From Cyanobacteriota bacterium (GTDB lineage Bacteria > Cyanobacteriota > Cyanobacteriia > Thermostichales > Thermostichaceae): a DNA stretch of 43,811 bases. Positions 34,601-43,600 of the stretch are shown here, in pieces. A program made the position numbers. The stretch is from positions 1 through 43,811 of the forward strand of contig JANRIL010000033.1 in the NCBI GenBank assembly GCA_033764955.1, read 5' to 3'. How positions within the stretch are numbered: position 1 is the first letter of the stretch; each line of letters begins with the position of its first letter.

Positions 34601-37600
34601 CTTCATTGGTTGATTCTCAAGTAAAAATCAACAATGAGCCTGTAGAAACCGTTGAAACTCCTAACAGGGAACCGCCCATGAAGTTGATTTTAGATGTATG
34701 CAATTCAGGGGTAGAGATTCCTGCTCACGAACTCGGTCATATCTTTGAGAAATTCTATCGGGTTCCTGGCATTGATCGCTGGAAACAGGGAGGCACGGGC
34801 TTAGGGCTAACACTCGTGCAAAAGATGACGGAACGACTAGGTGGCAATGTACACGTCAAGAGTATGGAAAATCAAACCTGTTTCACCGTTGAGCTGCCGA
34901 TCGACTCCTCCAACTATTCCCTCAATTAGAAACGAACCCATTACTCATCCGGTTCACTCCAGAAAGCGGCTTTACCTCCCCACAGCAGCCAGGAATAGAG
35001 AAAAGCGTTCTGGGAGCACCGGCGGGAAAAATTTCTAGATATAGCGCTAGGGTTTGCATGGATTTCCCGCCAATCAAGGAAATTTGGGCTTGTCATCCCC
35101 CAGATCTAGCATTAATCCCCTGAGTGTCTGTTACACTTATGGGCAATTTGAGTGGGATCCCCCCTTAACCATGCCTTCGTTTCTGCATGTGGCGGATGTT
35201 CATCTTGGTTTTGATCGCTACGAGAGTCCTGAACGGACGAAGGATTTTTTCTATGCTTTTCGAGATGTGCTGCAACGCTATGCCGTGGAAGCCGCCGTTG
35301 ATTTTGTTTTGATTGCCGGAGATTTGTTTGAGCATCGCACCATTTTACCCAACACATTGAATCAGGCTGAATTAGCTCTAGGTTTACTCAAACAAGCCGG
35401 GATCCCGGTGCTAGCGATTGAAGGAAATCATGATAACTGTCCCTATGGGGTTAAAACCAGTTGGTTGCGTTATCTAGCCGATCATGATTTCTTAAGGCTA
35501 CTGGAACCCATCTATGAGCCAGAAACTCAACTGTTAGCGTGGTCAGATTCCAACAAAAGAGGAGGATATTGCGATCTCCCTTGTGGAGTGCGTGTGATCG
35601 GCTCTAACTGGTATGGATCTTCTGCTCCCAAGGCTATTGATGATCTAGCCAAAGCTATCCACAATCTGCCTAAAAACCCAACGATTAACCAGACGATTTT
35701 GATGTTTCATCATGGGTTGGAAGGGCAAATTGCCCGCTATCAAGGTGCTTTACGTTATGCAGATCTGATGCCCTTACGAGAGGCGGGGATTGATTATTTG
35801 GCTCTTGGGCATATTCACAAAAGTTATACCGTTGAGGGGTGGATTTTTAATCCAGGATCGTTGGAGGCTAACAGCATTGCTGAAAGTGAATTTGAGCGGG
35901 GCGCTTATTACGTCCACCTTAGCCCAGGATTTGTTCAAGCTAAATTGATACAAGACCATCAACAGCGACCCTGTTACCGTCTGGATTGGGAGGCAAAAGG
36001 GCGAGAAACCCTAGAGGAAATTCAAGAGACGATCCTAACGATTGTCCAGCAAGCTGTGATACCCAACTCTCCGCAAGCAATTGTAGAATTTAAGTTAAAA
36101 GGACAAGTAGGGATCCCAAAAAGCAGCTTCGATGAGCGTCGGATTAAGCAAGACATTCAACAGATTACTCACGCTCTCATTGTCATTTTTCGCTGGGAAG
36201 CCAAAGCTCTAGATTTTGACTTGTCTCCTGCTACTGTGGATGATAATCAAAGAATGGCTGTAGAAACACAAGTTTACCACGACCTTTTGGCCAGTCATGC
36301 CCACTACCGCAAGCGTAGTCAAGAGCTAGCAAATGTACTTCTTGATCTCAAAGAACAGGTAATCGATGGACAGCCAGAAAGGGTGAGTTATGAACGCCTT
36401 GGGCAGGCCTTTCTGGGTAACTCCTTTGGTATGGAGGAAGCATAGATAAGATGCGTATCCTATCCATTGCACTTAGAAACTTCAAAAATCATCAAGATAA
36501 TTATTTTGCTTTCGAGGATGGAATTAATGCGATTTGTGGTGAAAATGGTTCTGGAAAAACAAGTATTTTAGAGGGTATTGCTTGGGTTTTATTTGATTAC
36601 ACTCCCTATGTTGAGAAAGAAATGATTCGATTGGGGGCTAATAGTGCAGAGGTAGCTGTCAATATCATTTCCAATCGAGACTATCGCACCTATGAAGTCC
36701 GCCGCAGCACTACCAAGGGGTATACTCTCTACGACCCACAGTTGAATCAACGTTTAGAATATGAGCGTAAAGCAGATGTTTTACACTGGATTCGTGAGCA
36801 GTTAGGAGTTCCATCTGGCACTGATTTAGCTCGACTCTTCACCACAACCATTGGGGTTCCACAGGGCTTATTTACGGCTGATTTCCTCAAGACACCTCAA
36901 GAACGCAAAAAAACATTTGATTGCATTCTCAAGGTAGAAGAGTATCAAACTATTTATAAAGACTTACTACCTTTAGAAAACTATAGCAAGGAGCAGATAT
37001 CAGAGATTAGCCATCAACTTAATCGTCGAGAAGAACGTTTGCTGGAGTGGGAAACCCTGCATTCTCAACAGCAAAATCTCACAGAACTCCTCACGGAAAA
37101 GCAGGCTGAGCTTAGCCAAACTCAAAGTTCCCTCAGCCAATATCAACGGGAAGTAGTTCGGCTAGGGGGTATCTCCCAAACCCTTAGCGATTGGGATCAG
37201 CAGCTTCAGCAACTGTATCATCAGGGATCCCTTTATCAGGTGCAACTACAACAAGCAGAGAAGCTCTGGCAGGAGGCAGAACAAGCTCAATCGGAGGTGA
37301 GGCAGCATACCGACGGATATCAAGCCTACTTAGCGGCTGAACAGCACTTAGCTAATCTAGAGGATCGTTATCAACAAAGGCAGTCTATCCTTGCTGAGCG
37401 ACAGCGCCTTTGGGAGCTGCATCAAGCTGAAAATGATCAGCACATTCGCCTGCAAGAGCGTTTAGTTCAGTTTGAGAAAATCCGTACACAAATTGAGCAG
37501 CTACAGCCCCTTGCTGCCCAGCAAAATCAGTGGCTAGAGCAACAACAATATTTAATAGAGCAAATCCAAAAACGGCAAGCCATCATAGATCAAGTTACAA

Positions 37601-40600: not shown

Positions 40601-43600
40601 TCACTGATTGCCTCCTTTGCCGAAGCCTTTGAACCTAGCCAGCAGGATCGTTATATTCAATCCCTCTTAAATTTATTACGCGCCAGTGAAACCTATCGAG
40701 TTCCACTGGTTGCTTATATTGATACCACTTACACGCGAGATTTGATCACCTTTTTGCAATATGTGTTTGATCTCCCAGAAGCTCCCCAACTGCATGATGC
40801 TCAACTGTTAGAGACTTACTTAGAGTGGGGAGATCGCTCTCCCTGCTGGGTTTGTGCCCGTGGAGGACTACAGTCTGGACAGACTGGCATCTTACATCAT
40901 TATCAAGAAATGCGAGAACGGGTGGGATTTGTTTATCTTAAAACAAACGATAACTATCCCGTTCGTTTAGAGATTCCTATATGGATTCAAGAAATGGGTT
41001 GGCTGGACTGGTTGGTTGATATTGTCCGTTGTGAGGTGATTATTGGCCGTGGTTATCCTTATGCTATTGAGACAGCTGATCAAACGGCGGTGCTGCGAAA
41101 CGAGGATCGCCATATATTCTTGAAGGTGCTACAAGATTGGTCGCAGCGAGAAAACCTCCATCTCAAGCTTTCTCGTAAAACTGTTAGTAAGATGCAGAGG
41201 AGGAGAGTCCGATGAGGTTAGGGAAGGTTGTTAAGTCTAATAATCACTGTGATTATGTGGTAGAAGTTGATGACCGCTTAAGTGTTAAGAGTCCTCCGGC
41301 TGCCGATGATTATGGTTTCGGGTGTTTTGTGAGGCTAGATACCCACAACCGGCACTGGGGGGTAGGGGTTATTTACAATACCCAACTGTTTAATCCAGCC
41401 TTTCTCAATTCTGGCCCCCGTTTATCCAGCCAGCCCAATCCAATCTATTCTCCCGACCTGCAAAATGAGATTAAGACGCTTCTTGCTGTTGTGCTGATTG
41501 GTAGCTTACAAGAAAAGATTCTACCTGCTAGACCCGACAGTCAAACCAAACCCACACTCAAATCAGAATCTTCTTCAAAACCACGACCAGACTCTAGCCC
41601 TAGTCCATCAGCTACTACCTATTATGGCTATCAAGGGATCCCAAAAGCCGTTGTTCCTATTGATACTTTGGTTTATCGTATGACCAGTCAAGAAATCCAT
41701 CAATTTCATCAGAATATTGAGGGAAAAAGTCAATTTACTTATTATGGGCTATTGCTTAATTGTGGAGGTATTTTCTCAAGTCACCTAATTCAGCAAGTGC
41801 TCAATGAAATTAGTGAAATGTTTGAAGGTAGTCAACGACGAGCCATAGAAACGTTGAGCAAAGAACTTTCTTGGAAAATGACGATGGGGGCAATGCGGTG
41901 ATGAATACAGTGAATCAAAATCATTCAACTTACACGGGTGAGCAACGGGATCAAGTGATTGGAACGGTGAAAGGACCTGGAGAAGAGGCTAATCAATATA
42001 TTTTCATTACCTCTAATACTCAGGCAGTAAAAGTAGGAGAGTTTGTCTATTATGAAAGTATTGGCAAAGCTCAAAAAATTCTGGGTAAAATTTCCCAACT
42101 TCAGCTCTTGGATCATTTACCCGATCGAATTTTTGCCGACACTGACATTGATCCGAGTGCCATCGTAGCCCTGATTGGTTTCAGCTATCCCAATCCAGAA
42201 ATTTATGCTGTTACGGTAGAGGTGATTGGCTACTTCCATAGAGCGATGGGCTTTGTCAATCCGCGCCAAGCACCTGATCCGGGATCCAAAGTCTTTCTTG
42301 CCTCCCATGAAATGCTGCGAACTGTCCTCAATAAACGACAGATGCAGGATATTGGTGGTGCCCATTTGGGCAGCCTTCTCCTAAGAGAAGAAGGAGATGT
42401 GCCTGTGGTGCTCGATGTTAAAGAATTAGTCAGCACCCACCTGGCTATTTTGGCAGGTACTGGATCCGGTAAATCCTATACAGCAGGGGTTTTAATCGAA
42501 GAATTGCTTTTACCTAAAAACCGTGCCGCTATCCTCATTTTTGATCCCCACGGAGAATATGGGACTCTCAGTGAGATGCAGTCTCACCCCACTTTTTGGA
42601 CAGAAGATGGCTATCGCCCCAAGGTGAAAGTTCTCACACCTGATCAAATCAAAATACGAGTTTCTTCTCTTAATTTCTATGATATTTTGACATTATTGCC
42701 GGATATGTCTGATCGTCAGCAGTCCTTTCTTGAAAAAGCATTTCTAGCCACTACTCAACACAATCAACAACGCTGGACGATTCAAGATTTGATTGATGCG
42801 GTTAACGATGCCGACTCCTCACAAGATGGTACGCAGGGATCCTCCGCCGCGGCTCTCCAGTGGAAGCTAGATAGAATTGATCGTTCTCCCTATTTTAGTA
42901 ATATCGAACATTTAGCTCCACGGGAATTATTTGAACCTGGGCAAGTGACGATCCTGCAAATGAATGAAATTAGCCAGGATGAACAGCAAGTCATTGCCGC
43001 TGCCATTTTGCGACAAGCCAATCATGCTCGCATGAATACCCATAAAGGCAAAATTTCTGAGCAGGAAGAAACCTATTTGCCCTTCCCAGTCTTTATTTTG
43101 ATTGAAGAAGCTCATCGTTTTGCTCCGGCTCACGAACCTTCCCGCTGCAAACAGGTGCTCCGCACAATTTTGAGTGAGGGTCGTAAGTTTGGTTTGGGTG
43201 TGGGGTTGATTACCCAACGCCCAGGGAAATTAGATTCTGATATATTATCGCAGTGCATGAGCCAGTTTTTGATGCGAATTGTTAACCCGATTGATCAAGA
43301 AAATCTGCGCCACAGCGTCGAAGCCGCCGGACGAGATCTGTTGAGCGAGTTACCTTCATTGAGCAAAGGCCAAGTGATTGTCTCGGGGGTCTGTGTGAAT
43401 ACTCCGGTTTTGTGCAAAGTGCGCCAACGTCATACCAAACATGGTGGACAAACCCTAGAAATCCTAGAGATTTGGCAGCAACATTTTCAATTGCACCAAC
43501 AACGAGAACGTTTGGTCAAATCTGCCCCCCTCCGCTCCCGTTCTCAACCTCACGTTTTGGATGGGTTAAGTATCGACTAGATTTTGTTGATCTTGCCCTT

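What a model noticed while it worked through the whole genome (the two positions that open the first line are those of the whole stretch)
35171..43580. Archaeal-type mre11-rad50-nurA-herA operon with a fifth gene, intact in Thermostichales and scattered but co-retained in [...]
g00181-g00185 form one operon, mre11-rad50-nurA-DUF8166-herA, separate from this genome's sbcC/sbcD and second nurA/herA. The operon is intact across Thermostichales; most other cyanobacteria keep orthologues of mre11, herA and the DUF8166 gene at unlinked places and lose them together. So cyanobacteria carry an archaeal-type end-resection set with an uncharacterised fifth subunit, and the linked form is probably ancestral.
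Evidence so far: Best Swiss-Prot hits are archaeal Mre11, Rad50, HerA. Neighbour table: NurA-DUF8166 near in 21, NurA-HerA in 20, Rad50-NurA in 17 of 29 order genomes. Mre11 orthologue in 27 of 30 order genomes. rad50-nurA-DUF8166-herA order seen in 6 of 8 Thermostichaceae loci and nurA-DUF8166-herA in the other 2; of 21 loci from other families 1 had nurA adjacent and none herA; mre11 next to rad50 in 3 of 3 family loci and 0 of 16 others. In 61 class genomes mre11 is in 46 and this herA in 43, 41 of 56 high-quality genomes for each, with the same eight families lacking both; those families that were listed also lack the DUF8166 gene, except f5 where the family tally and the rows disagree (96 of 151, call 3 [...]
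(Added by a program. Inside this text positions count along the whole contig: contig position 1 is position 1 of the stretch shown here. "Call 12" and the like, gene names such as g00115 and contig names such as C1 are that model's own, and its searches are not shown. The text may have been shortened before it was handed on; [...] marks where a part breaks off. The agent that wrote the report below was given it as the finding of a first reader that could run no searches.)

Follow-up and report, generated by a model that had tools for sequence, protein, structure and literature searches.

The report
Five-gene DNA-end repair set, cyanobacteria
This hot-spring-type cyanobacterium carries, as one operon, the archaeal-style enzymes that trim broken DNA ends plus a small fifth protein copied from the motor's docking domain, and many other cyanobacteria, including a standard laboratory species, keep or lose all five genes together even when they lie scattered.

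Summary
The operon is real: mre11-rad50-nurA-DUF8166-herA with intact catalytic motifs, separate from the genome's own sbcC/sbcD and second nurA/herA. The same five-gene order occurs in Chloroflexota-like contigs and three haloarchaeal plasmids. DUF8166 is a stand-alone copy of HerA's N-terminal HAS barrel without ATPase; this scan already noted such a subunit on other DNA (eight notes). Corrections: the operon is whole only in the window's family (18 of 23 genomes); the order's other family and non-photosynthetic relatives have mre11-rad50 and nurA-DUF-herA apart. 'Most cyanobacteria' holds by family (21 of 34), not in a species-rich sample (9 of 95). All-or-none retention of the scattered genes is confirmed, now for all five. 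Trees show vertical descent in Cyanobacteriia; two-block linkage is ancestral, the full five-gene link only probably. New details: this Rad50 has lost its zinc-hook cysteines in 29 of 29 Cyanobacteriia; a second nurA/herA/barrel trio is also co-retained. S. elongatus has all five; published transposon data show no UV or competence defect. Binding of the fifth protein was not tested (tool unavailable). New variant of a known system.

The parts
35171..36445 (+). mre11-type nuclease, 424 aa
   Evidence: Motifs DVHLG 9, GDLF 50, GNHD 85, FHHG 179, LGHIH 212; best NCBIfam Mre11_Pyroc E 4e-30 vs SbcD 9e-10; best PDB 1ii7 Mre11 E 1e-25
36451..40023 (+). rad50-type ATPase, 1190 aa, without zinc-hook cysteines
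   Evidence: Walker A 30, Q-loop 137, signature 1107, Walker B/D-loop 1133, H-loop 1166; no CxxC; apex aligns to the hook of relatives but keeps only the proline; best NCBIfam PRK03918 Rad50 E 3e-50
40013..41215 (+). nurA nuclease, 400 aa
   Evidence: Pfam NurA E 4e-49; invariant D103, E170, D195, D356 and basic tail K389/K393/R396/R397 in 32 orthologues; model pLDDT 91 with helical N-terminus, best match S. solfataricus NurA 2ygk
41212..41901 (+). DUF8166 gene, 229 aa: stand-alone HAS barrel plus three C-terminal helices, no ATPase
   Evidence: PF26500 precomputed; model pLDDT 90; top structural matches are HerA N-termini, Z 12.3, rmsd 2.3, 108 aligned; profile match to cognate HerA residues 18-142, E 0.0011, probability 20; P-loop in 0 of 111 members
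41901..43580 (+). herA translocase ATPase, 559 aa
   Evidence: GTGSGKS 186, DPHGEY 215, EEAH 402, EGRK 426, QRP 439, invariant or nearly so in 81 orthologues; best PDB T. kodakarensis HerA 9x1l E 1e-47

Best explanation
A housekeeping, vertically inherited five-protein pathway for processing DNA ends, a back-up beside SbcCD/RecJ-type routes. Mre11-Rad50 binds and trims the end; a HerA ring pumps the duplex into a NurA dimer that resects it; DUF8166, a motor-less copy of HerA's barrel, is a dedicated adaptor that joins the HerA barrel ring at the NurA-docking face. Shown: gene set, intact motifs, barrel fold, linkage, co-retention, vertical descent in Cyanobacteriia. Inferred from archaeal and Deinococcus work: resection chemistry. 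Inferred only: binding and role of DUF8166, and how the hook-less Rad50 closes its coiled coils.
For: Same five-gene order in family f1, Chloroflexota-like L153 and L158 and 3 of 4 haloarchaeal plasmids, whose proteins match the window's far better than its own paralogues (HerA 1e-133 vs 1e-17, NurA 1e-53 vs 1e-13). All five orthologues in the same 9 other Cyanobacteriia genomes of 221 searched, unlinked. Balanced class sample: DUF 96, herA 95, nurA 97 of 151, same 21 of 34 families; DUF and herA both 92, neither 52, discordant 7. Presence/absence needs 7 changes on an RpoB tree of one genome per family. Cyanobacteriia one clade at 100 in HerA and four-gene trees. Each NurA/HerA pair has its own barrel: second trio present in 3 and absent in 2 of 5 genomes tested. 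HAS barrel mediates NurA binding in Deinococcus (PMC9960219, sections 6-7).
Against: S. elongatus PCC 7942 mutants show no UV fitness loss (high-UV estimates +0.02 to +0.22; recN -0.19) and four are non-essential (PMC9659335 supplements). Mild induction at 2 h (herA +0.83, nurA +0.92, mre11 +0.76, rad50 +0.36, DUF -0.07) is matched by unrelated neighbours. Deinococcus and Thermus nurA/herA deletions are more, not less, resistant. Starred RpoB branches force only 2-3 changes, so independent losses are weakly resolved. Rad50 lacks the hook that is essential in yeast (PMC7752040). mre11-rad50 without the trio in G022 and G055; DUF-herA without this nurA in G079.
Confidence: 0.58

Rival explanations
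1. The set mainly destroys incoming or foreign linear DNA (defence or restriction of gene transfer) rather than repairing the chromosome.
For: On haloarchaeal plasmids beside a phospholipase D family protein, DEAD helicases, UvrD and a methyltransferase; an OLD-like nuclease is inserted in L175 and a SIR2-CHAT gene lies next to L148; repeated whole-set loss; a 2026 review assigns bacterial NurA-HerA a defence role (PMC13748450).
Against: In cyanobacteria the genes are chromosomal, vertically inherited and scattered among housekeeping genes; window neighbours are histidine kinases, an ABC transporter and a GST; PADLOC has no match for Mre11, NurA or DUF8166; no orthologue in the viral scan; mutants do not gain transformation (estimates -0.18 to -0.37, none flagged; PMC7125226 supplement).
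Confidence: 0.2
2. DUF8166 is a brake, not an adaptor: a HerA mimic that holds NurA, or poisons the ring, until damage is sensed.
For: It has the docking barrel without a motor; it is the one gene of five not induced at 2 h of UV, and its mutant has the highest positive UV estimate, +0.22, FDR 0.08; in family f51 it is linked to nurA, not herA.
Against: Translational coupling to herA in nearly all linked loci, and DUF-herA persists where nurA has left; the expression difference may only reflect its position behind glgC.
Confidence: 0.15
3. The HerA ring stands in for FtsK, clearing or resolving chromosomes at division or at stalled forks.
For: A review table lists Synpcc7942_0981 as the FtsK/SpoIIIE homologue (PMC7766704, one passage); HerA and FtsK are one superfamily (established knowledge).
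Against: The gene is non-essential; 13 of 34 families lack the set; co-retention with two nucleases points to DNA ends.
Confidence: 0.07
4. On history only: the five-gene operon was re-assembled in family f1 from two ancestral blocks.
For: Fewest changes for the rad50-nurA junction is 2; the sister family f36 and the non-photosynthetic classes both show the 2+3 split.
Against: The identical junction exists in Chloroflexota-like and haloarchaeal loci; breaks recur even inside f1 (G228, G234, G236, G237); f1 proteins nest within Thermostichales, so no fresh import.
Confidence: 0.3

Closest known systems
Archaeal herA-mre11-rad50-nurA end-resection system (Sulfolobus, Pyrococcus, Thermococcus; PDB 4d2i, 2ygk, 9x1l, 1ii7)
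   Same: All four enzymes, intact motifs, one operon; best sequence and fold matches are archaeal; NurA has a helical N-terminus like the archaeal type.
   Different: Fifth stand-alone barrel gene; NurA motif III has Asp (D356) where the review's motif has His; Rad50 lacks CxxC; non-essential in S. elongatus whereas essential in Sulfolobus.
Bacterial NurA-HerA of Deinococcus and Thermus; Oceanithermus nurA-hepA-sbcD-sbcC (PMC9960219, PMC5448004)
   Same: Bacterial host, non-essential, basic NurA tail and acidic HerA barrel loop suggest a similar ionic interface (inference).
   Different: Weak fold match to drNurA (TM 0.32) against 0.52 for S. solfataricus; dedicated Mre11-Rad50 pair co-retained; barrel subunit.
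Anti-phage HerA systems (Sir2-HerA, DUF4297-HerA)
   Same: HerA fold; their N-terminal barrels are among DUF8166's best matches.
   Different: HerA scores 209 bits on the repair model vs 101 and 91 on anti-phage models; no Sir2 or DUF4297 partner in the operon.
SbcCD
   Same: Same protein families as Mre11-Rad50.
   Different: The genome has its own SbcC (with CPxC hook) and SbcD elsewhere.

Membership tests
Archaeal-type Mre11-Rad50-NurA-HerA system | Four genes in one operon | tested here: met
Archaeal-type Mre11-Rad50-NurA-HerA system | Mre11 phosphoesterase motifs I-V | tested here: met
   (motif patterns recalled)
Archaeal-type Mre11-Rad50-NurA-HerA system | Rad50 split ABC ATPase with long coiled coil | tested here: met
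Rad50/SbcC (canonical) | Central CXXC zinc hook (PMC7752040) | tested here: not met
   0 of 29 Cyanobacteriia orthologues; two-Cys variant in 7 of 7 other-class genomes and L158; CxxC in 3 of 3 haloarchaeal, L153 and the genome's own SbcC
NurA | RNase H-like fold with DG motifs I and II | tested here: met
   D103, D195 invariant; fold
NurA | Motif III LxxAHxxxA (PMC13748450) | tested here: inconclusive
   Aligned place reads ETADQTA with invariant Asp356; an acidic residue could serve, not tested
HerA | HAS barrel, Walker A/B, arginine finger region | tested here: met
HAS-barrel domain (DUF8166 protein) | Beta-barrel matching HerA's N-terminus | tested here: met
   no Pfam PF09378 sequence hit
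Archaeal-type Mre11-Rad50-NurA-HerA system | HerA6-NurA2 complex with ATP-dependent 5'-3' resection | not testable with these tools
   Needs biochemistry
NCBIfam equivalogs (Mre11_Pyroc, PRK03918, helicase_HerA) | Score above curated cut-off | tested here: not met
   105 of 600, 171 of 700, 209 of 970 bits
Anti-phage HerA systems | Adjacent Sir2 or DUF4297 effector | tested here: not met

The most novel reading that the evidence does not exclude
Many cyanobacteria that lack RecBCD/AddAB resect double-strand breaks with an undescribed five-subunit machine in which a motor-less barrel protein couples HerA-NurA to an Mre11-Rad50 whose Rad50 shed its zinc hook at the origin of oxygenic cyanobacteria (CxxC, then a two-Cys variant, then no Cys), the first natural hook-less Rad50 lineage known to me; all five genes are open to test in S. 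elongatus PCC 7942.
Probability: 0.25. Interest if true: 0.78.

Novelty: new variant of a known kind. Interest (0 to 1): 0.52.

Why it matters
[quoted passage not shown] The finding names five loci in a genetic model (Synpcc7942_1252, _2009, _2198, _0602, _0981), points to an extra subunit of a well-studied machine, and offers a natural Rad50 without its hook.

Tried and rejected
Complex prediction of DUF8166 with NurA and the HerA barrel: tool not available, nothing folded, so binding is open. RNA runs: no RNA holder listed. Iyer et al. 2004 (FtsK-HerA superfamily) is not held; from recall it discusses bacterial herA neighbourhoods and may mention stand-alone HAS barrels, so part of this may be in print. 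Paper searches: DUF8166 0 papers; HerA/NurA with cyanobacteria, Synechocystis, Chloroflexi, stand-alone HAS-barrel, hook-less Rad50 and the locus tags listed nothing that describes this set; I saw listings and abstract starts only, and the library lacks most subscription papers; bioRxiv supplements (such as the fitness compendium 10.1101/072470) were closed and could hold co-fitness data. Sequence search of PDB found nothing for the DUF8166 or NurA alignments. Fusion of DUF8166: the only long hits among the best 150 of 188 looked like frameshift chimeras or repeats; no 'longer' search was run. Recent transfer into this genome: GC3 of the five genes is low (0.36-0.42 vs median 0.57) but trees place them inside the family; rejected. 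Mapping DUF8166 to Synpcc7942_0604 by accession offset was wrong (rpe); corrected to _0602 by the glgC neighbour and length. Monophyly of the whole phylum: 97 in the four-gene tree without Acidobacteriota, not recovered in HerA trees, not rejected (p-AU 0.41).
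Full report
OBSERVATION. Five ORFs lie head to tail on the + strand from 35171 to 43580 with gaps of +5, -11, -4 and -1 bases. 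They encode a metallophosphoesterase, an SMC-like ATPase, NurA, a protein without a hit in the local Pfam copy, and HerA. The best NCBIfam models are archaeal Mre11, Rad50 and repair HerA, each below its cut-off; the best PDB sequences are Pyrococcus-type Mre11 and T. kodakarensis HerA, and the NurA model is closest to S. solfataricus NurA. Catalytic motifs are intact and invariant among orthologues. The genome holds a separate sbcC, sbcD, nurA and herA on other contigs.

THE FIFTH GENE. It carries PF26500/DUF8166. Its model (pLDDT 90) is a beta-barrel followed by three helices; the six best VIA rows and nearly all Foldseek rows are HerA N-termini (Z 12.3, rmsd 2.3 over 108 residues), and a profile comparison aligns it weakly to residues 18-142 of its own HerA (E 0.0011). 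None of 111 members has a P-loop. It is a stand-alone HAS barrel. Eight earlier notes of this scan describe such a subunit in other bacteria and archaea; these are unchecked AI notes, seen after I had reached this reading, and they lower the novelty of this part within the scan.

THERMOSTICHALES. DUF8166 is in 28 of 30 order genomes. Of the 27 other loci fetched, 15 show all five genes in order; two more are split by a contig break inside nurA; with the window that is 18 of 23 genomes of family f1. G228 has mre11 apart, G234, G236 and G237 only DUF-herA, G235 no match. In family f36 none of 6 is whole: nurA-DUF-herA in 5, nurA-DUF in 1, and mre11-rad50 adjacent elsewhere in 6 of 6 fetched. 'Intact across the order' is therefore too wide.

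OTHER CYANOBACTERIA. In one sample of 221 phylum genomes, DUF8166, herA, nurA, mre11 and rad50 orthologues were found in 16, 16, 15, 18 and 18; within the class they are the same 9 genomes besides the window's, always unlinked. That is 9 of 95 genomes of families f2-f26 (f7 0 of 28, f8 0 of 15, f3 0 of 10); the class of f27-f30 (107 genomes, no match) was not shown. In a family-balanced class sample, DUF8166, herA and nurA are in 96, 95 and 97 of 151, in the same 21 of 34 families; DUF and herA are both in 92, neither in 52, one only in 7, five of these under 90% complete. Comparing the listed places by eye, DUF and herA are adjacent in 0 of 82 genomes outside Thermostichales (four lie at contig ends). 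On an RpoB tree of 31 rows presence needs 7 changes, though well-supported branches force only 2-3; the earliest-branching family sampled lacks the set. Kin are not independent, so no P value is given.

OUTSIDE. Non-photosynthetic classes of the phylum have nurA-(x)-DUF-herA (4 of 6; DUF-herA in 2) and mre11-rad50 as a separate pair (8 of 8). Among the best 80 metagenome loci of a non-cyanobacterial HerA profile, five show the full order: three Thermostichales-like, and L153 and L158, whose proteins cluster with or lie nearest to named Chloroflexota; most others are short contigs or herA alone. Three of 4 haloarchaeal plasmids with the gene carry the same five genes in the same order. No orthologue came from the viral scan.

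HISTORY. Cyanobacteriia form one clade (100) in the HerA tree and in a four-gene tree, with Thermostichales sister to the rest; the whole phylum is one clade in the latter (97) and not rejected in the former (p-AU 0.41). Two linked blocks are thus ancestral. The rad50-nurA junction costs 2 changes as loss and re-joining, 3 as repeated loss. I favour the linked ancestor (about 0.7) because the same junction exists in two distant lineages and breaks recur within f1.

HOOK. The Rad50 apex has CPxC in haloarchaeal copies, L153 and the genome's own SbcC; a CP-x(4-6)-C variant in 7 of 7 other-class genomes and L158; and neither in 29 of 29 Cyanobacteriia, which keep the aligned proline in most rows shown. 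The hook is described as central and essential in yeast (PMC7752040, passages).

SECOND TRIO. The genome has a second stand-alone barrel whose orthologues travel with the second nurA and herA: all present in 3, all absent in 2 of 5 genomes. Genomes that lack the five-gene set mostly keep this nurA (5 of 5 tested). One barrel per NurA/HerA pair supports a dedicated partner.

FUNCTION DATA. S. elongatus has all five. PCC 7942 loci were assigned by annotation, neighbour and length: _0981 herA, _2198 nurA, _0602 DUF8166, _2009 rad50, _1252 mre11 (the last by annotation only; 425 vs 444 aa). In supplements of PMC9659335 four are non-essential and _1252 'beneficial'; none loses fitness under UV; four are mildly induced at 2 h. 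In the supplement of PMC7125226 none is flagged for competence. These results weigh against a front-line role in UV repair or transformation, and fit a back-up route or damage types not tested; Deinococcus and Thermus deletions are likewise not sensitised.

MECHANISM AND RIVALS. Best reading (0.58): a back-up DNA-end-processing pathway with DUF8166 as adaptor on the HerA barrel ring, where NurA docks in Deinococcus (PMC9960219, sections 6-7). Rivals: destruction of foreign DNA (0.2), DUF8166 as brake (0.15), FtsK substitute (0.07). Binding was not tested.

KNOWN AND NEW. It works like the archaeal Mre11-Rad50-HerA-NurA system; it departs by the fifth gene, the hook-less Rad50 and NurA motif III. 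I found no paper on it (listings only); a cyanobacterial repair review does not mention these genes (term search) and a 2026 review denies such synteny in bacteria (passages); Oceanithermus has a four-gene cluster (PMC5448004, passages). Iyer et al. 2004 could not be read and may anticipate part. Verdict: new variant of a known kind, interest 0.52.

Noticed in passing
G000:C11:171824-172459 (+), with C27:23721-24734 and C43 (L270:2831-4501): A second stand-alone HAS-barrel-like gene, 48-55% identical to genes in G020 and G002; with the second nurA and herA it forms a second scattered trio, present in G123, G017, G260 and absent in G053, G103.
   Followed up: partly
window about 43740-43811 (+): The contig ends in the start of an ORF resembling an IS630-family transposase (resemblance from recall), the likely cause of the assembly break.
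   Followed up: no
window 26000-43811: GC falls to 0.39-0.50 against 0.50-0.59 in most of the left part; the stretch holds two GAF histidine kinases, a GST and a fused ABC permease-ATPase.
   Followed up: partly
L175:3799-5637 and L148:5346-7472: An OLD-like ATPase-TOPRIM gene is inserted between nurA and DUF8166 in one Chloroflexota-like locus; a SIR2-CHAT gene lies divergent from nurA in another.
   Followed up: no
G264:C80:6642-8411, G283:C19:615483-617249: Family f51 has DUF8166 directly upstream of nurA, the reverse of the operon order.
   Followed up: no
L004 / G232:C31: mre11 and rad50 are each in two pieces in this genome, by frameshift or assembly error.
   Followed up: no
L132, L164, L171: Acidobacteriota (Pyrinomonadaceae-like) also carry this herA apart from its partners, so scattering is not unique to cyanobacteria.
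   Followed up: partly
window 36451-40023: Rad50 is about 1190 aa in Thermostichales, about 920 in other Cyanobacteriia and about 1010 in the other classes.
   Followed up: no
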